Positions 3,577 through 47,590 of a DNA stretch of 64,000 nt are shown in pieces. The position numbers and the translations under genes were made by a program. The notes under the pieces were generated by a model that was not told the DNA's origin, did no database searches, and worked only from the letters and a program-made list of their open reading frames with translations. Every line of letters begins with the position of its first letter. The stretch's first letter is position 1. Source of the DNA: Psammoneis japonica (taxonomy: Eukaryota). The stretch covers positions 124,001 to 188,000 of the forward strand of contig QPGO01000093.1 of the NCBI GenBank assembly GCA_008632985.1, given 5' to 3'.

Positions 3577-3890
3577 GGCTGATGATCAAAAGGCCGGCAG
3601 AGACATCATCAAGGTGAGAGATCGTGTCAAAGAAGAGGCTTTTCTGAGCATCGCACTCACACTTTGTGCAACAAAACAGGTGCACTGCACAAAAACAAGT
3701 TTCGCTGCAAGTTTTGCTGGGGGGTTGATGTTGCAGACGGCTGATGATCAAAAGTCTGGTGGAGACATCTTCAAGGCAAGAGATCTCGTGTCAAAGAAGA
3801 AGCTTTTCTGAGCGCCGCACTCACGCTTGGCGCAAAATGACCAGACGAAACAAACAAGCTGTGCAAAGACAAGCTTCACCATGAGTTTCA
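3577..3890 (+). repeat. Diverged tandem duplication (~162-bp period) within a degenerate coding remnant
   Basis: GGCTGATGATCAAAAG...GAGACATC..CAAGG..AGAGATC..TGTCAAAGAAGA.GCTTTTCTGAGC occurs at 3577 and again at 3739. Confidence 0.7.
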
Positions 3891-8552: not shown

Positions 8553-8779
8553 CATGTGTGCGGGCTCTCACAAATGTCATCACAAACAATGTCCGTTGGT
8601 CAGACCATGAGACAATTCATGGAAACGGGCCTCTGATGTCCATTCATGTGCACCACAGCGAAGCACTGAGGAACAGCATTGGGTTTTCCTCCCACTCTAA
8701 ATGCAAAGGACTGTTCCAAGCATTGGGCCGGTCGTTCCAAGGCTGCAAGGCATGGAGGAGCCCTGACGGTTAACTCTTG

Positions 8780-9540: not shown

Positions 9541-10274
9541 ATGACTCGCCATCGCTTTCCTTTTTAAAGAAACAGTGCAGCCGGGACAGGAAGAACAGAT
9601 CCCCCTCCTGCTCCCAAAGTTCACATTGGCCCAGTCATGCACAGATCCTTCACTGTTGCAGCCAGGGTGGGCGCAGCAGTGCAAGCATCTGCCAAAGGTC
9701 ATCAGAGGAGTTCTCTCCTGCGCCGATGCAATCCCTCCACATTTTCTTAAAGAAATTGAGCAGGACCAGGTGAACCTGACATTGCATTTGCTTTGTGTGC
9801 CAGAGGAAGGTGACTGCCTTGTTCGTTAGACTGCAATGGAGGGAAAATGTGCTCCCCCCCAGTTTGTGTTGTTCAATCTCATGTGGGATGTCTTTTCTTT
9901 CATCCTTGGAAGAAATCCATGGGTCAGCCAACAAGGCTTGGTGCACTGTCATTTGATCTTCCATGTGTGACACCACCTGACCAAGGAACACGCGCCAAAG
10001 CTGCATTGTTGTGTTGTTGCCAAGGGCAGTTTGAAAAAGTCCTTTGACAAAGATTCCCCGAGACCCGTGTCAAAGTTCATGGTGTGGCAGAAGTGACAAA
10101 GAAAGATTGGCAGGTGCAGCAGCTCATGCAGCTTTTGCAGCTTCCGCCCAGCTCTTCATGTCTGGGGGGAGAAATGAACCACGCGAGACACCAGCAGCCA
10201 AATTTTCTTTCAGATTTTGTTTGGATCGGCTCTCTCTTTTGGTGGGTTGCAAAGTTGATGCCATGCATGGAAGG

Positions 10275-12190: not shown

Positions 12191-12997
12191 AAGAGGGGAA
12201 ACATCATCATCAAAAGGTGCTGACCATGGTGCATCAGTTGGGTCCTCTTCAACAAGCAGTCAACCTGAGTTGGATGTTTGCAACAGATGCTCCCCACTGT
12301 GACCGCCTCAACCTGGGGAGTGACACAAAAGTTGTCTGATGATGAAGAAATGTCCAGTTGCTCTGACAGCATTCCATTCAATTGGACATTCCTGGAAGGA
12401 GAAGTTTGACCCACAACTTTAACGGAGACGTCCGGTGATGGGGAGGGGGGCAACAGGCTCTCAACGCGACAAGTTGGCCTTCTCGTGAGTGACCAAAAAA
12501 CGTTGTGGGTTGTGATGGAAATGGGTGAGCGTGCATGTGAATGACCATTTGCAACACGGACATGCAACAGCCTCACCCTGCTGAACACCATTGCTGTCCA
12601 TTTTGAAAAACGCAAAGTGTTGTGAGTTGCACAACTGCAGTTGTGGAGCAATGGCCAAACTTGGTTAGATCATGGAAATTGGGTGGATTGTGTTGGGAAG
12701 CAAGGAAAACACGACACAAAATGGTGCAAAAACACAAGTTCATTGCTTTCTTTGCGTGAATGAAAACATTTGCAGGTGCAAATGAATTGCATGCATTGGG
12801 ATCATTGATCACTTTGAGCAAGGAAAGGAGAAAGCAAGTTGTGATGTGTTGGTCACAATCATTCTGGGCGCACCTCACAATGAATTTTGATCACTTTGCT
12901 GCAAACCATGAACCTGGTTGCACAAAATGAGACAGATCATTGGCCCATTGACCAAACAACTGCTGGCAAAAATTCAAGGAGATGACAAATGTGATGG

Positions 12998-14203
12998 ATG
13001 AAACAAGAAAACAAATTGCAGAAGTGGAGTGTGGTGCAGCTTGAATCTGGGAGAAGGGAACACACTGATGACAATGGGGGGTGCTGGATCAAGGAGGGAA
13101 GGAGGGAACTCACAGATGACCCGCACAATTGCCGTGACTGCATGGACATGTTTTGCATGTTGGACAGTGTTCAATTTTGTGTGGATGATGTGGAACTCTG
13201 GTGGATGTGGAAGGAACAATGGAAAAACAAGTGCAGGTTGATGGTTTTTGCATTGGCCCATGTGAGAGAGTGGAGTGACAAAGCAGTTGAGTGCACACAT
13301 GCCAGTGCCCACATGTTCTCCATGAACAATGAGATCAACTGGGCAAATGCAAACATTGATCATGGGAAAAATGCACACAAGTGCAAGGAGCATTGGGGCT
13401 GCATTGTGACCCACCAGGACAGGCAAGCTGAGAAGCATTGTGTCTGCAGTCATTGCCACAATGATGGAGAGAGTGAAGTGAGAGATGAGTTTGCAGTGGG
13501 ATCAATGGGGGGCAACATGAAATTAGCCATGGACAGGCAAAACATTCATGCTTTGAAGGACATGTCCAGCATCAGCTTGCCAACTTGTGGAACAGACAAA
13601 AAAGGAAGGTGCGGGCCACTCGGAGTTAGATCCAAGTGGGGAGGCACTTGCGGACTGGTGATGGACAAAGAGGTGATTGTCTTTGATGCATTGAAACTGG
13701 CAAAGTGGTTCCAGCATGAAATGCTGCAGGACAATCATGAAAAGCTGTGGTTTTGTGACGGAATGGAGTTCTTTTGTTTGTCACCCAGGACAGTCAATGG
13801 TTGGATGATGGATTTGGTTGAGAAGGAGAGTCAAGGTGGAACTCATGAGCCACACCATCCAAATGAGAACAAGAGATGCTGCAGGGCAGAGAAACTCTGG
13901 CGTGATCACATGGACCATTTTGTGAATTGTGTCAAGCCAGAGACATTGGCTTTCAATCGCATGACTGATTGTTCTGACATCGGGCAGCACAGCAAGTTTA
14001 AAATTGCAAGTTTGGAGGGAGATGCATTGGGGGAAGTGGACCAGACAGGATTGTGGTGCCAAAATGCTGGTGGCACTCCACCACCAGTGGGACGACGGGA
14101 AGGCGGGAACTGGTGTCATTTGTTTGTTGCATTCAAAATCTCTTTTGTGGGTGCCATGGTTTCCAAATGCCTTTGTGAGTTGGACAAATGTGTGTGTCAT
14201 TGA
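12998..14203 (+). pseudogene. Degenerate ORF of unknown function, probably cargo or accessory gene of the Plavaka-like element
   Basis: 401-codon open frame with protein-like composition but no Tyr and excess His/Cys; oriented divergently from the transposase. Confidence 0.4.
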
Positions 14204-14456
14204 ATGAGCTGGAAATGGATTTAGAAATCACAGTTGTGCAGATGTTTGAACTGGATTGTGCATCAACAGAAAATTTTCAAAAACAACAAAGAATGGTGAA
14301 ATTCATTTTAAAAGAATGTGCAATCACAGTCATGGTCATTTGCAAGTTACATGGCTGTAAAAAGAACAGAGTCATTGGTGAGAGCATCAGGTGTTTGGTG
14401 TTAAAAGAGAGGTTTGAAATTTTTGCAATGGCAACAATCATCAAGGGAACAGAGGC

Positions 14457-15825
14457 GTGCAGCTGCCCCTCATTTGCACAACATTGTCAGAGGCAATGGC
14501 AAGGAAGAAGAAAAAAACAGAGTGGGGAAGTGGCTGGAGATCAACCAACCAGCCAAAGGCTGGCAGCGGCATTGATGCGGGCAGGAGCCAGTGGAGATCA
14601 CCAGTCTGTAAAGAGGGAGGTCAAAGAGGTGGCACAGAGAGAGCCATTCCCAAAGGCAAAGTTCCTTGTCAAGGCAGACATGGAGAGCAGTGGAAAAGTG
14701 TTGCGGCTCATGTGAAAAAAAAAACAGCCGGTTGCAATTTCAGCATGCAAGACTGGGCAGGATCGTGGGAAGACTGGGCAAAGAAGTGCATCATGAATGC
14801 AACCAATGTAAAAGGGAACACCGTCACACAGACGATGCAGAAGAGCGCAATGGCTGGCAAGTGTTTTGTGATGCATGGCATGTTGAGTGCAGCAACACAC
14901 TCAACACAACCCTTCTTTGGTGCAGTCATGATGACAGAGCAGCAAGCAAAGCAATTGCATGGTCAGAAGAGAGCTGCTGTAAAAAAAAGAGGAAAGAGGA
15001 AGAGGAAGGGTCAAGCGGCAGATGAAGCTGTTCCTGGTGACATGGGAGGATGAGACAGTGGACATCATTGTGGGGGAGAAGTGAAGGAACAAGGAAGCAC
15101 ATGTGCGGTTCTACAAAAATGTCCTTAAATTCACAAAGAGCACTGCGGTGTGGAGAAAGAAGGTGGAGTCGGGTGAGACCAAGGCTCCAGATCTAACTGC
15201 GGCAAGCAACAAGGCTCTGGGGCTGTTGACATTGGAAAACTGCTGGAAGATTTGGGAGCACAAGGCCCTTCATGACAAGACTGTTGAAGGGGGAGCAGAC
15301 ACAGGGGATGAAGAGGAGGAGGAGGAGGAGTCAAAACCAGCGCCCAAGTGTGCAGACCCAGTGCAACAGCGCAACTCATGGAATGATGAAGGAATGTTGC
15401 AATTCAACACCCCACTTGCACAAGTGAAGGAGGACAGGGCAAGTGAGAAAGGTGTGCAGTTTGACACATGGCAGAGTGGCGGCAATGAGAGGGAGAGCAA
15501 TGAAAAGGTCGAGGGAGCAAAAAAGAAGAAAATGCCGGTGGAGAAGCAGGTGAGGAAACAGGCAATGACAGAGCTTTCCAGCAACAATGAGGAGGACAAG
15601 GAAGAGGAAACGGAAAAGGACCTGCACAACAAGGACAGCAAAGAAGAGGAGGAAGGAAGTGAAGCAGGAACCAAGGATGAAGAAGAGGCAGAAATGGAGC
15701 AAACTCCAGTGCAGAGAGGGAGGGAAGCCTTTTGTCAATGCCAGAATGGAAAACTGCAAAGCACTGCATTGGTGTTCATTGAAAACACTTGCAAACCAGG
15801 AATGCAGAAATTCGATGTCAATTGA
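14457..15825 (+). pseudogene. Degenerate accessory gene of the Plavaka-like element with acidic C-terminus
   Basis: FPKAKF, then SNKALGLLTLEN(C)W.IW...WNDEGMLQFN...VKEDR...F. I associate this pattern with accessory ORFs next to Plavaka-type transposases (from memory, unverified). Frameshifted. Confidence 0.45.
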
Positions 15826-15908
15826 GAGATGTCTCACACTGTTGGTTGATGAACAACTTGTGCCACACATTCTAAAAAAAACATTGAATGTGATTGTCAG
15901 CACAAATT

Positions 15909-16076
15909 TGTGGACTGCCAGCATTGGGACAACATGATGGATGTCTGGGACAGATGACAATTGTGCGCTGGATGAGAAAGAAAGTGAACAAAGGAGAGAT
16001 CATCAGATCTCTCCATGCTGTCTGTGCCAGTCTGTCCAACACAAGGGAGTGCGCTCCCCCTCTCAGATGTCTGTCA
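15909..16076 (-). repeat. 3' LTR of Copia copy 1
   Basis: TG...CA on the minus strand; colinear with 21625-21792 and 34795-34963; preceded by the purine tract AGGGGAGGG (16077-16085, minus). Confidence 0.9.
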
Positions 16077-19000
16077 CCCTCCCCTGATGAGCAATGCAAT
16101 GCTTGTCAAGGAAGAGAACATCTGAAAAAAAGAGGACCAGAACAGCAGAACAAAGTGAGGGCCAAAAATTTTGCCCAAGACTTGACTCACAAACACGACA
16201 ACAATCAACAGCAGTGTCCCATCAAGTGGCAGGCATGGCAGGAATGAAGCATCCAAACCACAACCTTGGTCAGCACATCAGCAGGGTTGATGACACCCGG
16301 AATGTGTCGAGTGACAATTTTGCCCGCCTCGCGCCAGTCTTGGATTGCAAAATGTGAACATCAATGTGGCGGGAATGCTCCGCAGGCACCTTGTGATTGA
16401 CCATCTGGGTGGCAGAAGAGTTGTCAACATGCAAGGGAGCAGGTTCACATTGGGGAAATCCCAGCTCTTCAAGTGCCATCCTGAGATTCAAAGCCTGCTT
16501 CACACTGGCAACAGCAGCAACAAGAAATTTGGCTTCTGTGGAGCTGGCAGCTGCAATTGTCTGAGTTTGGCAATGGCAATCAACCACAGCACCAGCAAGG
16601 ACATGTGCATGTCCAGCAGCAGAACGCAGATGCCAAAGTTTGTTGGCATGTGCTGCATCAACAAAGCCAAGAAGTTGGAACAGATCATCAGCACAAGGAA
16701 ATTCTGGAAGAGTTGGATCCAGTTCCAACCATTCAAACAAAGCAAGGAGGAAGACCTGGATTGTGCTTTGTCTTCTTGTGCATCAAACCCCCCAATGTTT
16801 GGTGCAGCGCAAATGCTTTGCCACGCACTTGAGAGAGGTGCAGTGAATCTCAGTGGGACAACCAATGTCCAAACAACAACAAGTGCGTGCAAAAATAAAT
16901 TCACCCACAACAGATTAACAGGAAAAAACCTGGAATTCCGCCAATGCTTCACAGTCCAGGGTGCCTTCAAAGGGGCCTTCAGCAGTGTGCAGTTCTGCAA
17001 TGCTTTCAACCAGGATGGGTGCAGCCTTGAAGTCACTGTGTCAGATTTGTCAGCAGCAAGTGAGTCCCAGCTGTCAGTCTTGAAGACTTGGTCTAAGCAG
17101 CTTGCACATTTTGTCATGATGGAGTCCTTGTTCTACACCACATCAATGCCATTGAACTCGGCAACCAAACTGAGATGCTTGAAAGGAGGCAAGTCTTTGT
17201 TTTCCATTTGGAGTTCCTTGCCAACATGATCACAGATTGCTTTGGCAACATCCTCTGAGGGACAAACAAGAGCAAAGCCATCAACCTGATGGAGCAACAA
17301 TGCTTTGACACCATCACAAGTGCCAGAGTGGACACACTTCTTGTTGTGGGTGGTGTTGCGGAAGAGAAGTTTTGCCTCCTTGAGTGTCAAATTGATGTGC
17401 TTTTCCCATGGAACACCAGCTTCAGGATGGCCCTGGAGAGCATGCTTGAGCAGGAGAACAAAGTTGCATGTGACCTTCTTCCCCAAATGCTTCTCATGCC
17501 ACACAGCACATGCATCATCTGTGGCAACATAAACAGGTGCAGATGGACCTGGAGAGTGAGCATGAGCATCATGAGCATCACCACCAAAAATGCAATGCAA
17601 CAAGGCAGCACCAAGAGCAAAGAACATCTTCTCAATCAATTGGTCAACACAAGATGAACACGTGGAGGTCAACTTGTGCAAAGCTGGTGGGGCAGACTTT
17701 GAGCCATTTCCACACTGCCTGGAGCAACATTGGCCATCAGGTTTCACCATGTGATCCCAACACAGATGCACAGCAGTGGCGCCAGGAGGTTGTGGTTGTG
17801 GAGGACCACACATGCCGAGTGCAAAGAGTTGGTCCAGTTGATGGTGTTCACCTTTCTCCCATTCAGGCCATGCATCCAATTTTCTAAGCTTGGATTGGGC
17901 AAGTTGATCAAGAGCAGCTTCCTTGGGGGTGAGAGAGCAAGAGCTGATTGCATTGAGATGTGCATGAAAGTCTTCCGTTGGAACAGATTGTTCCAAAAAA
18001 TCATCTTCAGGATGGAGAAGAGCCGCAATTGAACACGCATCTTCAAGGGCAAGTTCCGGCACATGTGAGTCATCTTCCATGGAATTGGGGTCAAATGACT
18101 CTGCTTCCTCAAAAGCTTTGTTGAGAGTTTGTGAGTCCAAATGTCTTTCTGGTGCAAAAGTGATCTCAAAAGTTGGGATCTCTTCATGGAAGAAATGTGA
18201 CAGTGCAGCTTCAGCATCCTTTGGTGTGAATGCTTCATGCTTGTTGACAGAGACAATGTGAGCACCCATGATCTTGTTGCGAGTGGCACAAAGTGAAGGA
18301 AAAAAAGAAGCTGCAGGACTGCGCTGCTTGATTTCAGATGCATGGGCATGATCCATCAAAGCACACTGGGAGAAGCCAAGCCCACAAGTGGGATCTGTGG
18401 GAGGGTGTTTCATGGTGCAGGTGACAGTCTTGGCAAAAGGATTTGAGGATGAAGCAAACATGGGAACAGTTGTTTCCTGTGTTTCAGCCAGGAAAGGCTG
18501 ACCATTTTTCACATGCTGCAAATGGGTGGCATTCAGGGAAAGCCTGTCAGATGACAAATCATTCATGCCTTCATCATGCTGCACATGCTCAGCCCTCTTG
18601 ACTTTGTCAGTCATGGGGTCCCACCAAAGAACGTTCTTCAAAGTGTTTGGCAGATGGCCAAGGAATGCCCCTTTCTTTGAGTTTGTCCTGAATGTGGCTG
18701 GATGAGCAGAAGGTTGTTCAGCCCATGCTTGGCATCCAAAAGTTTTCAACGTAGAGAAGTCTTCAATCTTTCCAGTGGCAAGGGTGATCGGGGCAGCATC
18801 TTGATCTTTTGAAGGAGTGGCATTCTTGACATGCAGGCAATGACAAAAAGCACAGGGCCAGAATCTGATCGGGAGGTTGGCACCAATTAAAAATGCGCAA
18901 ATCGCATTCTCAACAGTCAAATGTGAGTGTTTGACAGGTCCACATTGGTTGGAGGTGCCAGTGCCAGAAGGACACATGTCATGCTGGAATTCACATTCAA

Positions 19001-20686
19001 AGATGTCACGAACTTTTGGATTTTTGTGTGATTCCCCACCTTGGTCCACAAAGACATGTTTGTCATGACAGTTTGGCAAATGTTGATCCAAGAATCAGCA
19101 AAGCCACTTGAGAGGACTGGCTTTGGAAACCCATGCAACCCCATGGAGCATGCAAGTTTTGTGGTCGCACACACTGATCCAACATGTTTCATCTTTGAAA
19201 CCAAGATGGTCAGACTGGCAGTTTTCATTCTTTTAGAGACTTGACCAGCAAAAGCAAAATCCACAGCAAGACCTTGGCATGGTTGAGTTGCCTTTTGAGT
19301 TGCATTGGGTCCAGCAGCTGTCTTGACTCATTTTGCCTGGATGCGTGCTGGACAAACATCAAGCACCGGGTTGGCATGACAAAACTTGGGAACTCCTTTG
19401 ACACACTTGCGAGCATCACACAAGCAATGATCACTGGGATGACCAAGATGGTGATGCCACAGCAGAAATTCAGTCTCAATTTTTAGAGAACAGACCAGAG
19501 CAGGAGCAGGCAAAGGGGGCAAGACTTCATCAATGGAGTTGCACTTCATCAAAAACAGCTCAGTGTCCATCACAGGAGGGGCAGTTGAGTCATGTTGGAC
19601 ATTGACACAGAACGCAGCATGTTGGCATGCATCTTCAAGATCAGCAACCAAGGTTGGATTGGACATTGGAAGTGCTTGATGTCTGGCAGCCTCTGACGGG
19701 GGAACCAAAGCTTGGGCAAAGACCTTTCCATGGCAAAGAATGCCATGGACAACCACCTTGTGGGCATTGGTCAAAGCAGCACATGTGCAAGCACTGTCAG
19801 CACAGGTCTTCTCAAGGAGCTTGGATCCAATGGCATGGGGTTTAAAACCAGAAGCCCGCACAAAATCACATTCATCAATCAAGGTGGAATGCAGACTTGG
19901 GTGGCAAAAAGTGCGCACAAAAAGGAAGCCGTCTGCATTCTCTGCAGGCACTTGCAAGCAACCATGGCCGTGGGGAATTGCATCAGGAGATCCTTTGGTG
20001 GCAGGCAGCATCTTCAAAGGGCATGGGTTGTCTGGTCCAAATGGGGTGTGGGCATGAAGAAGGTTCTTGTCTCCAGCGCAGGACACCCAAGCACCTGTGT
20101 CAATCTGTGCATGGCACATCGATGAATCTTGGAGCACATGGACCAAATTGGGAGGAAGTCAAATGGAGTCATCTTGAGGGCAGCACATCCATCACCGTGG
20201 CAGACCCATTGGCGGACAATGTCAGGACACTTGGAGTCAGCTGGAAAAATCCCAACCTTCTGGATGTGCTGGAAGATGGTCAACTTCATCCAATCAAGTG
20301 GTGCGTGCATGCAAAGTGGTGGGTCATCTGTGGAATCATTGCCACTTGTGAAACCTCAATTGCTGCCATCCTTGACAAAACACCACAAAGGATGCATGTG
20401 TGCACCACAAGCTGAAGCTTGTTGGGTTGCAGTTGTGTGCCATGCACGGATTCCTTGAGGAGAGATGTCATCACAAGTGAGAAGAGCATGAAGAAACAAC
20501 TTGGCATCCCAATTGGTGCAATGGACAGAAAGAGAGCCATTGGCGCAAGTGTGAGATGTTCTGCACCATCTTCATGATGAAGATTGCCAGACTTGTGGGG
20601 TGTCAGTGATTTCCCTGACACTGTGTTCCCTGCTTCCTTGCATTGATGGCAAGCCAACACATCCTTGGGGAGTCCTTTTGGGTTGA

Positions 20687-20688
<2 letters not shown>

Positions 20689-20721
<33 letters not shown>
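20689..20721. repeat. (GT)16 microsatellite inside the gag region of Copia copy 1
   Basis: Directly visible; absent at the homologous position (~35855-35865) of copy 2. Confidence 0.95.
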
Positions 20722-20722
<1 letters not shown>

Positions 20723-21624
20723 CACTGGTTGCAGTCAAGGCAGAAGCCACAGTGGCAGCAGTCATGGCAGAAGATGCAGAAGATGGTGCAGGAAGAGTGG
20801 TCTTCTTCAACATGTCGTCAGTCACAGCCTTCTCACACTCTTTTGGACCGGGCAAATGGGTGGCCAAGGCCTTGGCAAGATCTTCAAGGTTGGCACCTGC
20901 AGCGGCAGCCAGTGGAGGTGCAGAACTTGAGGCATGACATGACTTTGGATGTGGAGTGTCGGGTGTGTTGTCCCAACATGCATGAGATTGAAAATCAGGA
21001 CTGAAGAAGAGACAGATGGATGCAAACACATGTTGTCACAGCATCCTGACCATGCAAGATTGCCTTGATCATGGCCTTCTGAAGATTGGCATGGTTCAGA
21101 CAAACCTGAGAACCTTGAGGAGCAGCCACAAATGGAGGAGCCTTGTCAATGATTGATGCAATCCATGTGAGATCCTCAATCAGCGCAGCTTGGGGGGTGG
21201 TGAGGTCCTGAACAATCTCGCGAGATGGAGTGTTGGAACAGCATCACTCTTGAGGCCTTGAGGAGCAAATCCATCTAGAAGATCTTCAGGAGCAGGGATC
21301 TCATCTGAACAAAGGGTGTTCAGGTGAATGTGGGCATCAGGTGAGAGGTGATGTGGCTTGAATTTGACCAGCATGGGCACGATCTTGGTGAAATTGACGG
21401 CGTTTGTGTGTTCTTGTTGACCACGGTTGCAAAGGAAAAAATTAAGTTCCTGCACAGAGCTCTGGCATGTGCTCTGTGGTGGTTGTTTGATCACAAATCA
21501 AGAGGCAAAAAACAGCTGTGACAATGATGACGATTTCAACGGAGGAAAGTTGCCAAACCACACAACGGGCATTGCAGCACAGCAGTGCAGAGAAAGACAA
21601 ACAGCGCACTGCTGCTCACAACCT

Positions 21625-21792
21625 TGCAGACTGCCAGCATTGGGACAATTCAATGGATGTCCAGGGCAGATGACAATCATGCACCAGATGAGAAAGAAAG
21701 CGAGCAAAGGAGAGATCATTGGATCTCTCCATGCTGTCTGTGCCAGTCTGTCTGACACAAGGGAGTGCACTCCCCCTCTTGGATGTCTGTCA
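21625..21792 (-). repeat. 5' LTR of Copia copy 1
   Basis: Colinear with the 3' LTR; followed on the minus strand by GGTTGTGAGC, a mutated Copia-type PBS (GGTTATG...). Confidence 0.9.
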
Positions 21793-22032
21793 CAAATTGT
21801 TTTTGTCAAAAGGCTTTTTAGTGTTGAAGTCTGCAGGCAAAAAAGGCAAGCACTCTGAAGGGGAAACAGGGTGCATTTTCACAGTTGAAGGTTTCATCTC
21901 ACAGGACACAGTGGGGTGCAAATTGTCACCACAACAGTCAAGGCTTGAAACAATGGAATTTCATGCCGTGACAGATTGAAAAAATTGCCATGAGAAAGGT
22001 GGTCTGGATCACTGCAATGCATGCTCTGATGC

Positions 22033-22611
22033 ATGTCAGCCACATCTCATCAACGTTGTCATGTCTGTGCTTGCAAGAACACCAAGTGCCCAGCAAAGCG
22101 GGGTGACAACTCCATGAAAGGCATCTTCCTTGGGCACATGCCGGACCCAACCAAGGACATTGTGTGGTGTGATCCAGTGTCTGACCTTGTCAAGATGGAC
22201 ACACATTTTTGCCTCAATGAAGGTGTGAATGATCTCCCCCATGGCCAAACACCACCGAGCATCATTCATCTTCAATGGACACAGAATGGCGAACTTTTTC
22301 CAGCTGAGGAAGAGGAGACATCAATTGAGAAGTTTCACTTTGCTGGCAATCCTTTTGCCCAGACCCTCAAGTTCAAGATGTGGTGGTCTGCATTGGATCC
22401 AAAGTGTGGCATGACTTTCAAGACTGATGAGCTCTTCAACCATGTGTGCTTGTCTGATGTCAAGTGTGGCAGCTCTGCGGCATGCCTCTTCTCCTCTCAC
22501 AAGGCGCTGCTCGGAACAAGATCTGATTGGATCCACAACCACTGGAGGCAGGTTGTGCACCTGTCAATTGTTGACACCATTGGCAAAGAAGATTTCATGA
22601 AGAAGCAATGA
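22033..22611 (+). mobile_element. Fragment of a related Copia pol (post-integrase SH3 region)
   Basis: KGIFLGHMP...IVWCDP..LVKM.TH..LNEGVNDLP...NGELFPAE is paralogous to the same region in copies 1 and 2. Confidence 0.75.
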
Positions 22612-33026: not shown

Positions 33027-33524
33027 CCCTTCAACCACCAGGGGAGCAAATCTCCACGGGTGGAGATTTGCTCTACTTAAGGATGTGTGACGTGTCATGC
33101 AATTTTATAATAATATAATGAACATAGTATGAAAATGTCATGTCGTGTAGAATCTACGTAAACTATACCACGTGCATTTACTTATTGGGAGCAAATCTCC
33201 ACCGGCGGAGATTTGCTCCAAGGGTGTGGTATTATTGGTCTATTTGCGATAGTCATTGATGATAACCTGCATTGTTAAAGGTTGAGATTTAGTTCCTCTC
33301 TATTCATAGATGTAGCTTGCAAAAAACCAGGTGTTGAAAGTCGACATTGAACTTTCTAAATTACAAAAAGGGTTCCCCGAGATTTTCGGCGAATGCGCGT
33401 TCCAAAACAAAATCGCGTGAATTAAATATCATCCATATCTGTAATAACTTCGTTTACTATATTTGTGACGTAAGGGAGCAAATCTCCACCCGTGGAGATT
33501 TGCTCAAGTCCGGTGGTTGAAGGG
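33027..33524. mobile_element. Non-autonomous piggyBac-type MITE (498 bp)
   Basis: TTAA|CCCTTCAACCACC ... GGTGGTTGAAGGG|TTAA: 13-bp TIRs with a TTAA TSD. Three copies of the palindrome GAGCAAATCTCC.C.GG.GGAGATTTGCTC (~33044, ~33190, ~33476). AT-rich, non-coding. Confidence 0.92.
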
Positions 33525-34039
33525 TTAAAAAAGATGTGATGTGCCATCATCTTTCCAGAGTGGCGAGAAATGTCCAATGTGCCACGAGAAGAACAAGAAA
33601 TGGAAAAAGAGACAAAAACACCTTGAGACACACCTCATCTTGTGCTGGCATCCCAGAGCAACAAAAGGCTGCAGCGCTGCTTTGGCACATGCTGTCTCTC
33701 TGCCCAACACTGCCCTCTGGCGACCATTGGGGCTTGTGGTTTGATTTTTGCATGAGCTGTGGAAGCTGCTGTGCAAATGATCAAAGGCAGTCATTGGGCA
33801 AAATGTGGAGAGATGCGCCAATGACAAGAGCAACCCCCAATGCCGCGCTGACAACAAATGATCCTTTGTCTGTTTTGTGGCAACTGGAATCTTGAACTCT
33901 CTCAACAAATCCAATGATGGGCCCAAGGCATCTTCAAGCACCTGCAAAAAAGCACCAGGCTTGGATCAAAGCAAGCACTGCACACTGCAAAATAAAAAAA
34001 GAACATCTGAGCAGACTTGATCAAGGAGAAAGAAGTGCT

Positions 34040-34290
34040 GTGTGGTCATCATGTTGGAATGTTGGGGTCAGAGGCAGTTTTCACAGAACAGACAGACAAA
34101 GTTGCAGCAAAAGACACACTGACAATTGTGGATGACTGGCAAATTTACATCACAGCTTGGTTTGGGTTGTGGGTCTTGTGCTCACTTTTTAGCTTCTGCA
34201 CCCAGCCAACATGGTGACAGCAGTCAACAGCAATGGCAGTGTGTTTGCAAGCAATGTGGCTGGTGAGTTCAGGGTCAGTGAGGCCAAACT
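34040..34290 (+). repeat. Dispersed ~250-bp repeat (copy 1 of 3), possibly the LTR/UTR of another retroelement
   Basis: Aligns with ~41800-42050 and ~42950-43190 (CAGACAAAGTTGCAG...TTTTTAGCTTCTGCACC...GTGTTTGCAAGC). Confidence 0.75.
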
Positions 34291-34794
34291 CACACTGACC
34301 GGAAGGCTGTAAAACTCCAACACAGAAACTGAAAGTCACTGCATGACACTCTAAAAGGTGTTGTTGTTTGAGGGCCAGGAAGTCAAGAGGAGCCTCCAAC
34401 AAAAGGCTGGGAAGTTGACAAAAATCCAAGGGCAAAGGCTGGGAAGTTGATGGGAGTCCAAAGGCACCTTTTGTGTCAGCAGATCACAGCAAATGAGATG
34501 GCTGGATGAGGGCAAACAAACAATCTCTGGAAGCAGGCCTTGCTGTTGAAGAAGCTGTTGAGGGTCTGCCAAAAGAGGGCATGGCAAGGTTGTGTCAGGG
34601 ACCAGCAAGGCAGAGTGCACGGCTGTTGGCAAGCCATGATCATGCTCCAGCATGAGCCCACAAAAGATTCACAAGAGTGGGTGCATGGTGCCATTGCCCA
34701 GTTGGGACAACAGGCAGATGGTCACACAGGAAACAACAAGAAAGATCAGCAAGCATGTCCGTTGGAAGAATGTGCAGGCCGGAGATTCAGGTGC

Positions 34795-37700
34795 TGACAG
34801 ACATCCAAGATGAGGAGTGCACTCTCTTGTGTCAGACAGACTGGCACAGACAGTGTGGAGAGATTCAATGATCTCTCCTTTGCTCACTTTCTTTCTTCTC
34901 TGGTGCATGACCACCACCTGTCCTGGACATCATCAGATCATCCCAACACACCAGCAGTCTGCAAGGTCATGTGCAGCAGCACACTGTTTGTCTTCCTCAA
35001 TGCAGCCACATTTCAACATCCGTTGTGTGATCATTTGGCGATGTCTGTTGAAATTGTCATCTTTGTCACAGCTGTTTTTCTCTCTTGATTTGTGAGATCA
35101 TCACAACCACAGCAGAACACATGCCAGCACTCTGTGCAGGAAAATTTGATTTTTTCCATGCAACCACAGTCAATGAGAGCACAAACACTGTCAACTTGAC
35201 CACAAGATCAAGTCGACACTGGTTGAGTTCAAACTGTGTGATTGCTTGCCTGATGCCCATTGTCACCTGAGTGAGCTTCATTCAGACAAGATGCCTGTTG
35301 ATGTTCCTGAAGATCTTCTGGATGGATTTGCTTCCCTGGGCCTCGAGACCAATGCTGCAGCAGCTCTCCATCACAAGATCATTTGGGATCTCATCATTCC
35401 CAAAGCTGCACTGACCAAAGATCTCAGCCGGATTGGGCCAATCATGGACAAGGCGGCTCTCTTTGTGGCTGCCCCTCAAGATTCTCTGGTTTGTCCAAAC
35501 CAAGCCAATCATCAGAAGGCTGTGATCAAGGCAATCTCAGATGATCAGGATGCCACAAGAACACATGTTGGTGGGTCCACCTGTCTCCATTTCTGTCATG
35601 GTGCCCGTTTTGAGTGTTGTGATTGTTGGGATGGTGCATCTGATGCGCCACACCCAAAATCCTCCTCTGCCCCAAGTTTTTCATCTCTGCCAGCTGCTGC
35701 TGCTGCACAGGTGCTGCCTCTGAAGCCCTTGTCAAGGCTGCTCATTTGCCTGGTGCAAAAGAGCACAAACAAGGCACAACCAATGCATCAAAGAGTGCTC
35801 CACCTCCTCCTGAGCCTTCTGCCATGACTGCCATGACTCTGACTCTGGCCAGTGCCCCACGCACTTTCAACCCCAAAGGGCTCCCTGGCGAGGATGTGCC
35901 AGGAGCTTGTCACCAACACAAAGAAGCTGGAAAGGTGATTTTGGGGAGCAACTGGCTCCCTGCAAGTCTGGAAACCTCAGTTGTGAAGACAGAGCTGAAA
36001 ACGTGGTTCTCTTTTTGTCCATCATGCTGGTTGGGATGCCAAGTCATTCCTGCAAGACCCTCTTGCTTGCAAGGAATCTGTGCATGGCATGCACTGCTGT
36101 GACCAAACAAGCCACGGCTTGTGGTGTGAACATGCGTGCATCCTCTGTGGTGTTTTGTCAAGGATGGCAGCAATTGGAGCTTCATGAGTGGCAATGATCC
36201 CACTGATGACTTGCCACTTTAAATGCAAGCACCTCTTGATTGAATGAAACTGACTGTTTTCCAGCACATCCAGAAGGTTGGGATCTTTCCCACTGACTCC
36301 AAGCACCCTGATGATGTTCATCAATGCTGTGGTGATGGGCGTGCAGCTTTCAAGATAATCTTGTTTGACATTCTCCCAATTTGGCTAAAGCACCCCCACA
36401 ACCTGATCAAGAGTCATCCATGCCAGAACAATCTCATGACTCTCAGCTGCTGTGCTCTTTTCAGAGACTTCCTCCAGTTGCAAGTGATTGTCTTGAATGT
36501 TGGTGCATCTCTTGATGACCCTGGTGAGCTGGACATTTTCCTTGGCAATGCCTGACATGGAGAACATCTGCACTGCAAAACTGCAGATGCATGAGAAGCC
36601 AAGAACGAGAAGCATCAGTTTGCTCAGAAGAAGATTGTTGAGACTGTCAGCACACTCCTGAAGGAACTGGGTGGCCCTGCTCTCCATGCCCAAGCATCCA
36701 CTGCACCACCTCTCAACAACAGTCAGACTCAATCCTCCTTTGGCAGCTTCCATCTGAGGTCTAGACCTGCTCACTGTTGATGAACCATCTGATCCACCAG
36801 CAGTTGCTGAGGAACCTCCTGTGGAAACGTGTCCTCCTCCTGCAGAAGTGCCTTCTGACACTGTGGAATTCTTTGTGAACGAACTTGCCACTTTGGAAAT
36901 CTTCAAAGATGATGAGGCACAAGCGCTGCATGGTGTTTGCAAAGCTTGTGTCTGTGGGCTCAAGGCTGCTGCATCTGCTGCACAGACTTGCCCTTGTCTT
37001 GCATGCAGAGGTGGCCATTGCTTTGCCAAATGTTGGCATTGAACAATGCCGACTGCTTGCATTCTCACCTCATCTGTTTCAGTCAATTCCTTCAATGTGA
37101 CCAGCATGCTCAAGATGCACTTGGAGCTGACAAGACCAAGAAGGATGGCTCTGCTCCCTCGGATTTTCTGCAGGGCCATTGTTGCTGCTTTCAGATGTGC
37201 AATGCTGCCCACCTGCCTCTGATCTGACACCAACTCCTGCAAGCAGGGTAACTGCAAAAGAGGGTCCAATTGACCAATTGCCTTCTGCTCATCTGCCTTG
37301 TTCTTTTACATGTCATTTGCTGACCTTCTTTCAGACTTGACAAAAGCCAGCACTCCAGATGCAAAGATGATTCCTGATGATGACCCTGACAGTGTGAATC
37401 AGGGGAGGGAAACCATTCTCCAAGAACCTCCTCCACCGGACATGGATCTTCCCCTGTCTGCTGGTGATCAAGACTGAGATTTTGAGCACCTTTGTGCAAC
37501 TGCTTGGCAACATCTGTCACCTTTGAGTGTTGCTTGCGTGTCTCTGACCCCTTTTCCCCCAGATTCACCTGCTCTGTTTGCACCTTTGGATGCTTCAATT
37601 GTTTCCATCAACCACATGCTCCAAGATTCAATGATGCATCATGTGCAGATTGATGTGGGTGCTTGGGTCTCATGCACTGAAGGATCTGATGTGATTCCTC

Positions 37701-40700
37701 ATGGCCATGGTTGCTTGCAAGTGCCTGCAAAAATGCAGACAGCTTCCTTCTTGCATGGACCTTTTGCCACCCAAGTTTGCATTCTACCTTGATCAACAAA
37801 CATGATTCTACACAGGCTTCTGGTTTTAAAGCTCAAGCTGTTGAATCCAAAGTGCTCCAGAAGACACATGCTGACAGCACCTGTGTGTGTGCTGCATCAA
37901 CTGACACCCATGAGGTGGTTGTCCATGGTGTTCTTTGACATGAAACAGTGTTTGCTCAAGCACTGGTCCCTCCATGATCTGAGACTCCCAAACGTCTGGC
38001 ACCTCAGCTCCAATGTCTGATCCAACTTTGGTTTCCAATTTTGAAGATGCACGCCAATGTGCAGCATTCCATGTCTGCATCTAACAAGACTCAACCAGTG
38101 CTTCTGTGATGGATGCTGAGTTGTTTTTGATGCAATGTCATTCTGTTGATGATGTCAAGTCACTGCACCCACATCTGCCCTGGTTTTTGTTCCTTGAAAG
38201 TCAAGACTGAATGCTTTCTTTGGCACCACCGCCTTGGTCACTCAAGTGATCATTGTTTGTATGATGCTCACAAGTGCATCAAGGGTGTTCCCAAGTTTTG
38301 TCATGAAAACCCTGTTCTTGATGTTTGTCCAGCATGCATCCAAGCAAAACAGGTGAAGACACCTGCTGGACCTGATGCAACCTGGAAAACTCAGCCATGT
38401 CAAGGTTTCACTGCAGACTTTGCTTTTGATGGTCAAGCCTCTAAGAATGAAGACAGCAAGTCTGGCTGTGTCGGTTTCAATGGTGCAACTTGTTGGATCA
38501 CTGCACATGATCATCCTTCTTGTGTGCTCCATGGTGTTGCATGAGTTTGCAAGCCAGTGTCCTGTCAAGTGGCTTCACTGATTCTTGGATCAACATTCAC
38601 CAAACTGTCATGACAAACATGCACTCATGGGTCAAGGTGGAGAATCATGCAAGAATCCAAAAGTTCATGACCTCTTCAAACACAAATTCCAGTGTGACTT
38701 GCATCCCAATGTGGATGTGCCCTGTGTTGAATGCTCACATTTGACTGTTGAGAATGCAACTTGTGCCCTCTTGATCAGTGCCAACCTTCCAATCCAATTC
38801 TGGCCCTGTGCTTTTCATCATTGCACACAAATCAAGAGTGCTGCTCCTGCAAAAGATCAAGACAATTTCCTGATTGCTGTTGCCACTGGAACTGCTTTGA
38901 AGACTCTTGGATGCCAAGTGTGGGCCAAATGACCATCTGATTGCCTGGCTCAATTCAAGATGAATTCCAAGAGGGGAATTTCCTTGGGCATCTTCCCAAC
39001 ACTTTGAAGAATGTTCTGTGGCAGGGTCCAGAGACTGACAAGGTCAAGACAGCCAAACATGTGCAGTGTGATGAGGGTGTGAATGACTTGCCATTGGACA
39101 ACCTTCCTCTGAAAGCCACACATTTGCAACCTGTGGAGAGTGGCCAGTCTTTTCCAGCTGATGCACAAGAAACAACTGTTCCTGTGTTCACTTCTTCATC
39201 AAATCCTTTTGCCACAACTGTGTTGCTCATGCCATGAAGCACTCTCCTGAGGATCCCACTTGTTGCTTTGGTTTCTCCCAGTGTGCCTTGATGGATTGTG
39301 TCTGTGCATCTGAAATCAAGCATTGCAGCTCTGCAGCTTCTTTGTCCTCCTCACTCCATGCCAGTTGCAACAAGATCATGGGTTTTCATGTGGTGTCCAC
39401 CATGAACAAGCACAAGGTTTTTACACTGAAGGATGAAAAGGCCGAGCTTTCTTGTGTCTTCTTCCATGAAAAGACCACTGCTTTTGAGATTGCTTTTGCA
39501 CCAGAATGATGTTTGGACTCATGGTCACTCAACAAAGCATTTGAGAAAGTGGAGCCATTTGATCCCGACGCTGTGGAAGACAAATCTCATGCACTGGAAC
39601 TCACTTTGGAGGATGTGTGGTCCATTGTGGCTGTCATTTGCCCTGAAGACAATTTTTTGGGAGAAGCTGTTTTCCTTCAGATGACTTTTGTGCTCATGTC
39701 AATGCAATCAGCTGCCGTGCTCTCATGCCAGAAGAAGCTGCTCTTGATTGCCTTGCTCACTCCAAGCTGTGCAAACTTGACACATGGCCAGAATGGGAAG
39801 AAGGCAAGAAGCATCAATTGGGTCAGTTCCATGCACTCCACATGTCTGGCCCTCTGCAGCCACAACCTCCTGGAGCAACTGACATGCATCCACATTAGAG
39901 TCACTTGCATGGTGAAAGCAGATGGCCAACATTGATGTTTTGGCAATGTGGCAATGAACCCAAGTCTGCAGTGCCTGCTTTGCACAAACTGACATCCACA
40001 CACTCTTCTTGTGTGGAACAATTGATTGAAAACATGTTCTTTTCACTTGGTGCAGCCATGTTGCATCAATTTTATGGTGGCGATGCTTGTGATGCATGTG
40101 CTCATTCTCCATCAGGTCCATCTCAACCTGCTGTCTTTGTTGCTGTTGATGATGCACATGCTGCGCAGTGTGAGAAATGGTTTGGCAAGTGGGTTCCTGA
40201 CATCACCATGTCCTTCCACTCAAGCACACCCTTCAAGGTCATCCTTGGGAGAAGCATGTCAACTTGATTCTCAGCCATGGACATGAAACTTCTCTTCTGC
40301 AACACTGCCCATTGTGAGTGCGTCCACTCTGGTGTGTGCAAAGGTGTCAAGGTGTTGTTGCTTTGTAAAGTTGATGATTTTGCACTTGCTTGTCCATTGG
40401 AGGATGTTGCAAAAGCAACCCATTGTCATGTTTGAAAGGCACTCCAAATGGAGAATGAAAAATTGCCTCCATTCAAGTGTCTGGGTTTGGTCACTGAGTT
40501 CAACGGCATTGACATTGTGCAAAATGATGAGTCAGTCACGACCAACTGTGCAAGCCACCTTGACCATGTTTCAAAACCCATGGCTGGGATGCCCTGCTGC
40601 TGATGAATCTGACAGCATTTTCAAGGCTGCTTTTTTCTGGTTAAATGCATTGCTGAGTCATGCACTGCTGAAGGTCCTCTTGAAGGTGCTCTGGAACACA

Positions 40701-41430
40701 ATGCACTGGCAACTTCTCAAGGCTTCTCTCATCAGTCTGTCTTGGGTGAACTGATTTTTGCATGCACTTGTTGTCAATTGGATGTTGTTTGTTCTTTTGT
40801 GACATTGTTGGAGTTCTCCAAGAGCCCTGACTAGATCCATTGTTCATCTCTCAAGCACATGGCCAAGTGTTTGTGCCGCACCAAGCACTGGGGTTTGACA
40901 CATGAGAAGTCCAAACATGATCTGGGCCTTCCTCCTTTGACTGGCTGGAAAACAATCCTTCTCTCCCTGATTTTCCTTGCACCATTGATTTGTTCCAGCT
41001 CTTTGGCTTTGTTGATGCTGCCCATGCCAATGTGCTTTGGCATTGTCATTCCACTGCAGGCCACGCACATGCCCTTGCAGGTGCTGTGATTGACTGTCAA
41101 TGCCAGGTTCAGACAATCACTGCTGTCAGCTCTACGAAGGCAGAATTTTTGGTGAGTGTTGCTGGTGCAAAGCAAACTCTGCATCTTTGGTCAGCACTTG
41201 AGGAACTGTGTTTCCCTCAACCTGGTCCTGCTCCTTTGCACATTGATGGTTCCTCTGCCATCCAGATGATCAATGACAAGGTGCCTGCGGAGCAACCCCA
41301 CATGTCGACATTCAACATTTTGGGATCCAAGACTGGCAGGAGGCAGGAAAAATTGTTGCTCAACACATTTTGGGTGTCATTGACCCTGCTGATGCACTGA
41401 CCAAGGCTGTGGGTTGGACACTTCACCAAT
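34795..41430 (+). mobile_element. Ty1/Copia (CoDi-like) LTR retrotransposon, copy 2, 3'-truncated
   Basis: 5' LTR 34795-34963 homologous to the copy-1 LTRs, PBS GGTCATG. Gag, protease IDVGA, LWHHRLGHSS, integrase, RT (..KVDDF) and RNase H (GFVDAAHAN) are colinear with copy 1. No 3' LTR found. Confidence 0.9.
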
Positions 41431-41434
41431 GACC

Positions 41435-43199
41435 ATTGGCATGTCTTGAAAGACCTGCATTGGCATTTTGCATTTGGGGTTGACACCCACCCCCTGATTC
41501 AGCCAAGGAGGTGCTGCAAGTGTTGGACACCTGTGGGGTCAACAAGAAACCTGAGGGTGCAAGTTTGCATGCAGAATGACAGGAAGAAGATTGCATGCTG
41601 GAAGTCTGCAACAAGGAGGCTTTGGACATCAAAGGAGGGACTGTCCTGACAGTGATCATCCATCAGCAAAGTCAGATGATGTGGGCCATGGGAATCAATG
41701 GAACAGTCAATGTGGTGTTGGGTGGCATGCTTGCCAAGTGTCATCCTCCTGTGCTTGATGCACACCAGGTCAATCAATTGATGAGACTCATGCAAAGGAG
41801 TGTGTTGGAAAATTGGGGCCAGAGGCAGTTTTGTGGGACAAACAAACAGACAAAGTTGCAGCACAAGATGCACTGATGATTGTGGACAACATGGCAAGTT
41901 TGTTGAATTTACAACTCAGATTGAGTTGTGGGTCTTGTGCTTGCTTTTTTAGCTTCTGCACCTGGTTGTCATGGCAACAACAGCCAATGGCAACAGTTGT
42001 GTGTTTGCAAGCCACACGGTGAGTTCGGAGATGGCAAAACTGAGCACATGCCAGTTGGCAAGTGCAAAGCTCCAGCAGGAGAGCATGCCAAAAGAGCCAG
42101 GTTGTCCATTGGGAGACACCACACCACATTGGACAAGGATGAGGAAACTTGGGAAAGCAGCGCAATCACTGTGTAAAACAGAGTGCAATCTGCAAGACAC
42201 AGAAAGCAAAGGCATTCAATGCAATTGCAGGGAAATGTGTGAAGGCTGTTTTTGTTGCAAACTTGAGGGAGTGATGGAGTTTGCAAGAGTTGCAAAGGGG
42301 TGGGATGTGGCAGTGCTGCTGGATGTTCTCAAGTCAACCTTGTTTGTTGCAAATGAGAAAACAAGCCCACATGTGCAGGTGTTCAAGGCTTGAAAGCAGT
42401 TGTCACTCATTCATCACGACGAAAGAGAAGCACTTCAAGATTGTCACAATCAGTCCATGAGCATGGTTGAAGTGGTGAAAATGTCCCATGACAGGATGAA
42501 CCCAGAAGAAATTGCCAACAAAGAAGATGGGTTCAGCAAGAATGCCAAAAAGTTGCCAGCGGCCATGCTGGTGGAAGGCACCAAGAAGAAACACTGGCAT
42601 GTCTTGAAAGACCTACATCAGCAGCTCACATTGGGGGTTGACATTCACTCCAATTCAGCTGAGGAGGGGCATTGCAGGTGCTGGACACCTGCAGGACCAA
42701 CAGGAAGCCTGGGGGCACAAGCTTTTCACTGAATGAGTGGAAGCAGATTAAATGCTGGAAATGTGACAAGGTCAGGCATGTGAGAAGGGATTGCCCCAAC
42801 AGCGGTCATTTGTTGGCAGAGTTGGATGATGCAGACCATGGGAATCAGCAGAACAGCCAATGTGGTGTTGAGTGACATGGTTTCCAAGTGTCATCCTCCT
42901 GAACTTGATGTGCATGAGGCCAATCAAGGGTTGATGGCTCATGCAAAGGAGTGTGTTGGAATGTTGAGGTCAGAGGTGCTTTCAGCAGGACAGACAAAGT
43001 TGCAGTGTAAGATGTGCTGACTTGTGGACTGCCACACAATGAATTTGCATCTGCAACTTGGTTTGGGTTGCACAGCTTGTGCTCACTTTTTAGCTTCTGC
43101 ACCTGCTTGACATGGCAACAGTGGTTGACAGCACAGCAGCAATGTGTTTGCAAGCCATGTGGTGAGTTTGGCATCAGAGAGACCAAATGAGTGCTGGTC

Positions 43200-43200
<1 letters not shown>
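41435..43200 (+). mobile_element. Tandemly duplicated degenerate gag C-terminus (CCHC knuckle) of another LTR element
   Basis: 41437-42050 matches ~42595-43190. CWKCDKVRHVRRDCP at ~42753 is a CX2CX4HX4C knuckle, with a frameshifted counterpart at ~41596. Confidence 0.65.

Positions 43201-47590
<4,390 letters not shown>

What the first reader, a model, noticed from the sequence alone, without database searches (positions are those of the whole stretch)
34795..41430. Two copies of the same Copia expose ancestral TA directly
The PBS is GGTTGTG in copy 1 (~21617-21623, minus) and GGTCATG in copy 2 (34965-34971). Both derive from the Copia-type PBS GGTTATG by opposite-strand changes. Copy 2 still has TAT at 38260-38262 (HCLYDA), where copy 1 has TGT at 19418-19420 (HCLCDA). 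These sites point to TA rather than CG as the ancestral state.
Basis: partly seen in the sequence, partly recalled or inferred. Interest (0 to 1): 0.7.

Follow-up and report, generated by a model that had tools for sequence, protein, structure and literature searches.

The report
TA-erasing mutation of diatom retrotransposons
Two dead retrotransposon copies in a diatom had almost every TA step changed to TG or CA after they inserted, the mark of a targeted DNA-mutating process so far measured only in one unrelated alga, and in the youngest transposon family examined it is strongest at the element's start and fades downstream.

Summary
Confirmed. Both cited sites were TA: a sister copy keeps GGTTATGAGC, which matches the host initiator tRNA, and 7 of 9 intact relatives have Tyr, none Cys/His, at the HCLY site. 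Conserved tyrosines survive at 0 of 27 and 2 of 26 sites, split evenly into Cys and His. But CpG decay also acted, making about a third to nearly half of resolvable CA/TG doublets, and the copies are 74%-identical family members, not twins. Short-read contigs match copy 2. LTR pairs show the change follows insertion, on both strands. Other Copia families give a time series: TA goes first, CpG later. In the youngest family (14 copies, similar age) TA loss ranges from 1% to 69%, falls 5' to 3' in 11, and hits the 5' LTR far more than the same-sequence 3' LTR (83/193 vs 16/192). Best reading: silencing-linked A-to-G mutagenesis at TpA, probably by an adenine deaminase (unproven). The same signature is in a 2026 Bigelowiella preprint, and this scan already noted it on other pieces of this genome; my look-ups did not find the polarity noted.

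The parts
15908..21792 (-). Copy 1: dead Ty1/copia LTR retrotransposon, both LTRs, about 1.2 kb internal deletion, TA- and CG-depleted
   Evidence: LTR pair 85.9% identical; tblastn to intact pol relatives; SH3_retrovirus and gag_pre-integrs Pfam hits; extent against a full-length kin
21624..21792 (-). 5' LTR of copy 1 (169 bp); 5-bp target-site duplication ATTTG just outside both LTRs
15908..16076 (-). 3' LTR of copy 1, preceded by a polypurine tract; differs from the 5' LTR by 8 CA/TG doublets, 3 CG-type changes, 4 other transitions, 2 transversions
21614..21623 (-). Primer-binding site of copy 1, GGTTGTGAGC (TG state)
   Evidence: host tRNA-Met match only for the TA state
19418..19420 (-). 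TGT (Cys) at a site that is Tyr in 7 of 9 intact relatives
34795..41425 (+). Copy 2: dead copia element of the same family, 5' LTR to RNase H region, no 3' LTR of this family
   Evidence: short-read contigs match it
34795..34964 (+). 5' LTR of copy 2, 84% identical to that of copy 1
34965..34974 (+). Primer-binding site of copy 2, GGTCATGTGC (CA state)
38260..38262 (+). Surviving TAT (Tyr) in the pre-integrase region; 3 of 8 younger kin also keep TA here, 3 have TG, 1 CA, 1 TT
3500..22500 (.). TA-depleted domain that holds copy 1 (CG still common at 3500-9500, depleted further right)
   Evidence: TA/CG counts per 500 bp, O/E
33500..47500 (.). TA- and CG-depleted domain that holds copy 2

Best explanation
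SHOWN (about 0.95): after insertion, these elements underwent near-saturating A:T-to-G:C transitions restricted to TpA, on both strands about equally and site by site, so each TA became TG or CA independently in each copy; slower CpG decay followed. SHOWN IN ONE FAMILY, assembly not checked by reads: the process is on or off per copy, is strongest in the first 0.5-1.5 kb and reaches a variable distance downstream. INFERRED (about 0.7): the host marks a domain of a new insertion starting at its promoter end (the same domain shows fourfold more CpG decay, so it is probably the methylated, silenced domain) and a mutator works inside that domain; loss of tyrosines kills the proteins for good. INFERRED (about 0.5): the chemistry is deamination of the A in T-A, best in TAC/TAT, by a TadA/ADAT-type enzyme, fixed as G at replication.
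For: Direction: Tyr kept 0/27 and 2/26, Cys:His 11:10 in each copy, Trp kept 14/14 and 11/12; 11 of 243 Tyr kept in 8 kin, 123 Cys, 76 His; TA-normal vs depleted sister pair, 305 TA to 128 TG, 126 CA, 39 kept, while 242 of 315 CG and 528 of 572 AA stay. After insertion: 13 LTR pairs, 2742 columns, 41 CA/TG + 26 TA/TG or TA/CA + 36 CG-type against 20 other transitions and 18 transversions. Order: TA kept 13-32 of 277, CG 152-208 of 334, other transitions about 1% in 8 kin. Both strands: RTAY 179 TG:172 CA, YTAR 48:49. Domain: 11 of 14 copies with falling 5'-3' gradient, p<0.001 each; 5' LTR 83/193 vs 3' LTR 16/192, p=2e-15; TA loss tracks CG loss per copy, rho 0.90; private other differences 5-21 per copy whether TA loss is 1% or 69%. 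Context TAC 0.56 > TAT 0.44 > TAG 0.29 > TAA 0.21; almost no transversions. Same spectrum arose de novo in mutation-accumulation lines of Bigelowiella natans (10.64898/2026.01.13.699255). Genome has ADAT2, a TadA-like gene and two A_deamin genes; no AAG/MPG glycosylase was found while 4 of 14 controls rang.
Against: TA is its own reverse complement, so sequence cannot tell a changed A from a changed T. No enzyme is singled out: the Asn tied to DNA editing is in this ADAT2 but also in all four solved ADAT2s aligned; amphioxus ADAT2 prefers GAA and TCG, not TA (PMC10354150, passages); the A_deamin paralog I checked has relatives across diatoms; an endonuclease V gene is present. No strand-coordinated runs, which a processive single-strand deaminase would leave (463/883 same direction vs 0.506 permuted). 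The gradient is clear only in one family: one copy runs the other way (L208), and in four more heavily hit families it is weak or mixed. No methylation, small-RNA or chromatin data were available.
Confidence: 0.6

Rival explanations
1. Same targeting, other chemistry: the T of TpA is enzymatically modified (5-hydroxymethyl- or 5-formyluracil type) in silenced DNA and then read as C.
For: Fits every count above equally, since T-to-C in RTA is the same event as A-to-G in TAY. A symmetric dinucleotide is typical of a maintained DNA mark (general knowledge). Thymine-modifying TET/JBP enzymes exist (PMC12730594, passages).
Against: No Tet_JBP match in the genome, but the controls were silent too, so this is weak. 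Transversions at TA are nearly absent (3 vs 942 transitions in hot bins); oxidised thymines are recalled to give some.
Confidence: 0.2
2. Error-prone repair synthesis (polymerase-eta-like, as in the A:T phase of somatic hypermutation) in silenced or promoter-proximal DNA, perhaps set off by repair of deaminated 5mC.
For: Promoter-proximal gradient and the per-copy link with CpG loss. AA and CA show slightly raised A-to-G in hot bins (0.83% and 0.78% vs 0.33% and 0.18%).
Against: TA is hit about 50 times more than AA, whereas polymerase eta is recalled to hit TA and AA within a few fold; no transversions; no dependence on distance to a CpG (0.72-0.77 in all classes); no strand-coordinated patches. 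Y-family polymerases were not searched.
Confidence: 0.1
3. A methyl mark on the A of TpA (6mA) that is then deaminated or misrepaired.
For: Symmetric site; domain-like distribution.
Against: No MT-A70 match (controls silent, so weak); known eukaryotic 6mA is recalled at ApT in active genes, not TpA in repeats.
Confidence: 0.05
4. Changes made on the element's RNA or cDNA before insertion (ADAR- or APOBEC-like), or mutated 5' halves passed on by recombination.
For: ADAR-type preference for a 5' U (cited); a few copy pairs share direction more than context predicts (up to 0.76 vs 0.56).
Against: The two LTRs of one copy differ at these sites; both strands are hit equally; no long shared runs between copies (longest 13 sites); TA loss also covers kilobases of neighbouring non-Copia DNA.
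Confidence: 0.02
5. All CA/TG doublets come from ordinary CpG decay, with TA simply rare in the element.
For: CpG decay is real here and explains about 37-44% of resolvable doublets.
Against: CpG decay cannot turn Tyr into Cys and His, nor explain 206 CA+TG columns with no CG in 8 kin that keep about half their CpGs, nor the TA-normal vs depleted pair.
Confidence: 0.01
6. Sequencing or assembly artefact, such as a modified base misread.
For: Run X1 may be the source of the assembly, so it is not independent; the library type is not on record.
Against: Five contigs of 640-2552 bp covering most of 35514-41280 match copy 2 with 2 differences in all, at depth 57-68. A strand-specific misread would give all-CA or all-TG reads, not a fixed mixture.
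Confidence: 0.02

Closest known systems
TpA hypermutation of integrated viral DNA in Bigelowiella natans (Mettrop et al., bioRxiv 10.64898/2026.01.13.699255; read parts 1-3 of 5: abstract to conclusion, not methods or supplements)
   Same: TpA to TpG/CpA only, both strands, several hundred- to thousandfold above background, confined to foreign DNA, on or off; adenine deaminase proposed, not shown.
   Different: There: a rhizarian, two viral regions seen mutating, TpA only partly depleted (Rho 0.45), transposons implicated indirectly. Here: a diatom, LTR retrotransposons, near saturation (O/E about 0.04), a TAY context rule, a time order relative to CpG decay, and a 5'-to-3' domain; none of these appears in the parts I read.
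Repeat-induced point mutation (RIP) of ascomycetes (definition from abstracts)
   Same: Dinucleotide-specific transitions that permanently ruin repeats.
   Different: Opposite direction: RIP is C-to-T, makes TpA and stop codons; this removes TpA. RIP is homology-triggered, while here same-sequence LTRs of one copy are hit unequally and near-identical copies escape.
DNA deamination by ADAT2/TadA-fold enzymes (amphioxus BjADAT2, PMC10354150, passages)
   Same: A natural enzyme class can make A-to-G in DNA; this genome's ADAT2 has the matching Asn.
   Different: BjADAT2 prefers GAA and TCG and also hits C; here C outside CpG is not raised and the target is TA.
CpG decay by 5-methylcytosine deamination in diatom transposons
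   Same: Same end products (TG, CA), same domains, accounts for part of the doublets.
   Different: Ten to thirty times slower in young copies, passive, cannot remove tyrosines.
Ty1/copia (CoDi-like) elements of diatoms (PMC2806351, passages)
   Same: gag-pre-integrase, SH3, RT order; short LTRs; 5-bp duplication.
   Different: LTRs end TG...AA rather than TG...CA (that paper lists three CoDi families without the TG/CA box); no CoDi group was assigned here.

Membership tests
Bigelowiella-type TpA hypermutation | Transitions almost only at TpA, to TpG or CpA | tested here: met
   942 of 2324 T-sites in TA vs 0.2-0.8% for other non-CpG steps in hot bins (bins chosen on TA loss); sister pair
Bigelowiella-type TpA hypermutation | Acts on integrated nuclear DNA, both strands | tested here: met
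   LTR pairs; symmetric contexts 179:172 and 48:49
Bigelowiella-type TpA hypermutation | Confined to foreign or mobile DNA, host genes spared | tested here: met
   TA O/E 0.02-0.07 over the copies vs 0.44-0.68 in gene-rich bins; all 30 family loci fetched have TA O/E 0.20 or less
Bigelowiella-type TpA hypermutation | On or off between lineages, seen de novo | tested here: inconclusive
   On or off between copies of like age; no mutation-accumulation data
Bigelowiella-type TpA hypermutation | Same enzyme (homologous system) | not testable with these tools
   The enzyme is unknown in both organisms
RIP | C:G to T:A transitions that raise TpA | tested here: not met
   TpA is erased; CA to TA is at background (0.17-0.21%)
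RIP | Triggered by sequence duplication, hitting the duplicated sequences alike | tested here: not met
   5' vs 3' LTR 83/193 vs 16/192; 98% identical copies with 1-5% TA loss; a 93% tandem duplicate in the window keeps 25 shared TA
RIP | Premeiotic timing, RID methyltransferase | not tested
   C5 methyltransferase domains exist (27 matches) but were not classified
ADAR/APOBEC editing of retroelement RNA or cDNA | One-strand, pre-integration, LTRs alike | tested here: not met
Ty1/copia LTR retrotransposon | LTRs, PBS, polypurine tract, target-site duplication | tested here: met
   copy 1 and kin; PBS complementary to tRNA-Met positions 31-40
Ty1/copia LTR retrotransposon | Integrase before reverse transcriptase | tested here: met
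   Collinear tblastn to relatives carrying PF13976, PF25597, PF07727; Pfam hits in that order

The most novel reading that the evidence does not exclude
Diatoms and chlorarachniophytes share an undescribed genome-defence pathway in which a natural DNA adenine editor (or thymine modifier) is loaded at the promoter end of a newly silenced element and advances along it, erasing TpA on both strands: a mirror image of RIP that is guided by position and chromatin, not by sequence pairing.
Probability: 0.3. Interest if true: 0.92.

Novelty: new variant of a known kind. Interest (0 to 1): 0.7.

Why it matters
It extends a mutational process measured once, in a rhizarian alga, to a diatom and to retrotransposons, and shows it run to saturation. 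The young family is a natural time course: it says where the process starts, that it precedes CpG decay and that it is not simple homology sensing, which turns 'what targets it' into a direct test with methylation, small-RNA and long-read data. If the agent is an adenine deaminase it would be a natural DNA A-to-G editor acting in defence. In practice, transposon ages, GC content and domain searches in this genome are distorted: tyrosine loss hides dead elements from Pfam.

Tried and rejected
Strand-coordinated tracts: none. Dependence on distance to CpG: none; nucleosome-scale periodicity: none. Transcribed-strand bias: raw TG 635 vs CA 488 (p=1e-5) vanishes in self-complementary context classes. 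Erasure spreading in from flanks: two copies with TA-poor DNA downstream (L203, L182) have untouched 3' ends. Candidate enzymes: Tet_JBP and MT-A70 searches found nothing but their controls were silent; nine deaminase-domain matches read as dCMP deaminase, TadA-like, ADAT2, RibD-like and two nucleobase-deaminase-like genes by my reading of motifs, with no expanded family. Other hosts: 80 related loci from metagenomes have TA O/E 0.40-0.91, none erased, but 5 of the 6 search peptides contain Tyr, so erased copies were selected against; this says nothing firm about spread. DNA-level polarising with those loci (58% identity) was noisy: of 87 doublets the majority state was TA 13, CG 7, CA 22, TG 10, other 35. 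GGTTATGAGC matches in external loci lie antisense inside coding DNA and were not counted as PBS. Run X2 does not cover copy 2. Pfam and PDB searches did not name the other decayed elements in the window. Dropped rows: P0010-P0011 (2 of 11 relatives, most distant); L041 (probable allele of L040) from the 8-kin set; 7 polymorphic TA sites in the young family. Literature: five searches for TpA loss in diatoms or algae listed no diatom report; subscription journals and bioRxiv supplements are not covered, and the preprint's supplement may hold context or position data.

Full report
Observation. All four cited motifs are at the stated coordinates. The two elements are dead Ty1/copia retrotransposons. 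Copy 1 (15908-21792, minus) has two 169-bp LTRs, a polypurine tract, a 5-bp target-site duplication and a 1.2-kb deletion; copy 2 (34795-41425, plus) lacks a 3' LTR of this family. Over 4634 gap-free columns they are 74.2% identical, and 203 of 456 adjacent double differences are CA in one and TG in the other. Outside CA/TG/CG/TA steps they still differ at 373 of 2164 columns, more than copy 1's own LTRs do, so they come from different sublineages of one family. The host is a diatom: the named relatives listed for one host gene are diatom proteins.

Were the cited sites TA? Yes. The host tRNA-Met found by pattern (initiator-like by recalled features) is complementary at positions 31-40 to GGTTATGAGC and to none of the TG, CA or CG variants. 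Among 20 family loci the motif occurs 14 times: TA once (L032), TG 11 times, CA twice, CG never (one TG match lies in the opposite orientation). At the HCLY codon 7 of 9 intact relatives have Tyr and 2 Phe (9 of the 11 proteins were used), and 8 younger kin in the genome show TA 3, TG 3, CA 1, TT 1.

Is it general? Of tyrosines conserved in at least 7 of 9 relatives, copy 1 keeps 0 of 27 and copy 2 keeps 2 of 26; each has 11 Cys and 10 His in their place, while Trp is kept 14/14 and 11/12. Eight kin keep 11 of 243, with 123 Cys and 76 His. But arginines are lost as well (8/45 and 2/35 kept), so CpG decay acted too. Of 161 CA/TG doublets that align to the kin, 43 are TA-class, 25 CG-class, 9 have a single CG and 84 cannot be called. 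Surviving TAs are poor witnesses alone: only 4 of 21 are TA in the kin.

When and on what? After insertion and on DNA. Thirteen LTR pairs (2742 columns) differ by 41 CA/TG doublets, 26 TA/TG or TA/CA, 36 CG-type changes, 20 other transitions and 18 transversions. Both strands are hit alike once context is controlled (RTAY 179:172, YTAR 48:49), and neighbouring sites show no shared direction. The flank matters: on the strand where A becomes G, TAC 0.56, TAT 0.44, TAG 0.29, TAA 0.21.

A time series. An RVT_2 search of the genome scored 150 of 804 candidates; I examined the top 30. They include a TA-normal family, families with TA O/E 0.1-0.3 but CG 0.8-1.3, and a normal/depleted sister pair in which 305 TA became 128 TG, 126 CA and 39 TA while 242 of 315 CG stayed. 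The finding's own family continues the series: 8 kin keep 5-12% of TA-class and 46-62% of CG-class sites; copies 1 and 2 have lost nearly all of both. TA goes first, CpG later.

Where it starts. In the youngest family I compared 14 full-length copies (96-99% identical) with one TA-normal sister as yardstick. TA loss runs from 1% to 69% although each copy has only 5-21 private differences of other kinds in 6.6 kb, so it is a switch, not a clock. In 11 of 14 copies loss falls from 5' to 3' (p<0.001 each), peaking at 0.5-1.5 kb and ending anywhere from about 1.5 to 5.5 kb; two copies are barely touched; one (L208) is hit almost throughout and runs slightly the other way. The 5' LTR lost 83 of 193 TA, the same-sequence 3' LTR 16 of 192. 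TA-poor DNA downstream does not bring erasure in from that side (L203, L182). CpG transitions are 2.06% in hot bins and 0.48% in cold bins, and track TA loss per copy (rho 0.90). Directions are mostly independent between copies (0.52-0.76 shared vs 0.56 expected; a few pairs exceed this, longest shared run 13 sites). Limits: no reads were laid on these copies, so chimeric assembly or polishing is not excluded (L201 and L202 look alike downstream but not upstream); in four more heavily hit families the gradient is weak or mixed and the first 500 bp is often less hit than the interior.

Mechanism. Shown: a TpA-specific, two-strand, post-insertion transition process, several hundred times background inside its domain. 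Inferred: the domain is the silenced, methylated part of the element, set up from the promoter end; it is not plain homology sensing, since same-sequence LTRs fare differently. Inferred with less support: deamination of adenine. The genome has an ADAT2 with the Asn linked to DNA editing, but so do all four solved ADAT2s aligned, and amphioxus ADAT2 prefers GAA and TCG (PMC10354150, passages). No AAG/MPG glycosylase was found (4 of 14 controls rang), endonuclease V was. Because TA is self-complementary, a modified thymine fits the counts equally well; polymerase-eta-like repair fits poorly because AA is hit about fifty times less than TA and transversions are absent.

What is known. Mettrop et al. 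(bioRxiv 10.64898/2026.01.13.699255; abstract to conclusion read) saw the same TpA-to-TpG/CpA spectrum arise de novo at about 6e-7 per site per generation in integrated viral DNA of Bigelowiella natans and proposed an adenine deaminase. I reached this paper through earlier notes of this scan. Five paper searches listed no such report for diatoms. It works like a mirror-image RIP but fails RIP's defining features. This scan has noted the process before on other pieces of this genome (17 notes held my search words), including the Tyr argument and the TAY rule; two look-ups for the gradient returned nothing, and none for look-alike stretches in other genomes.

Verdict. Real, correctly polarised at the cited sites, overstated as an either-or with CpG. 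The phenomenon is a new variant of a kind reported once; this locus is one more example within the genome, and the added value is the time order and the 5'-anchored domain. Interest 0.7.

Noticed in passing
G000 young copia family: L181, L182, L197-L208, C388:8-15 kb: Half-erased copies: TA loss starts near the 5' end and stops at different distances; 5' LTR hit far more than 3' LTR; CpG nearly intact.
   Followed up: yes
window 3500-9500: TA-depleted but CpG-rich stretch with long broken frames (4983-8321) that read like a non-LTR retrotransposon by recalled motifs; an earlier stage of the same process. No Pfam or PDB match.
   Followed up: partly
L040 and L041 (C147, C390): Same insertion site on two contigs, 98% identical, probably alleles; differences are 68 CG-type, 10 TA-type, 8 CA/TG, 22 other in 6490 columns, so both processes went on after the alleles split.
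   Followed up: partly
family LTR ends, e.g. L037, L041, L045, window 15908: LTRs end TG...AA, not TG...CA, as fixed by the 5-bp duplications.
   Followed up: partly
L176 (C301:34166-37723) and matches on C297: C5 DNA methyltransferase genes lying in TA-erased DNA (TA O/E 0.07, no Tyr in the frame, CpG 0.73): possibly foreign or mobile genes hit by the same process.
   Followed up: no
L056:313-1785 (minus): Frame joining a deaminase domain to a 2OG-Fe(II) oxygenase (DIOX_N + 2OG-FeII_Oxy); probably nucleobase salvage, not examined as a mutator.
   Followed up: no
L209 (C40) and L210 (C79): Two A_deamin (ADAT1/ADAR-fold) genes; the C79 one has relatives in many diatoms.
   Followed up: partly
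window 41434-43190 and 34052-34288: Other decayed repeats (72-76% identical direct copies) abut both ends of copy 2; one begins where copy 2 breaks off.
   Followed up: no
window 22030-22611: Fragment of a further copia-like pol on the plus strand just outside copy 1's 5' LTR, at the edge of the depleted domain.
   Followed up: no
window 27290-29205: Tandem duplication (93-99%) with the window's two N bases; TA normal; may be an assembly join of alleles.
   Followed up: partly
window 31200-41300: Contig depth about 57-68 against about 120 nearby: copy 2 and its left flank look present on one haplotype only, or the other allele is too diverged to lay.
   Followed up: no
window 44134-44248: (TTTC)n microsatellite inside the depleted domain.
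   Followed up: no
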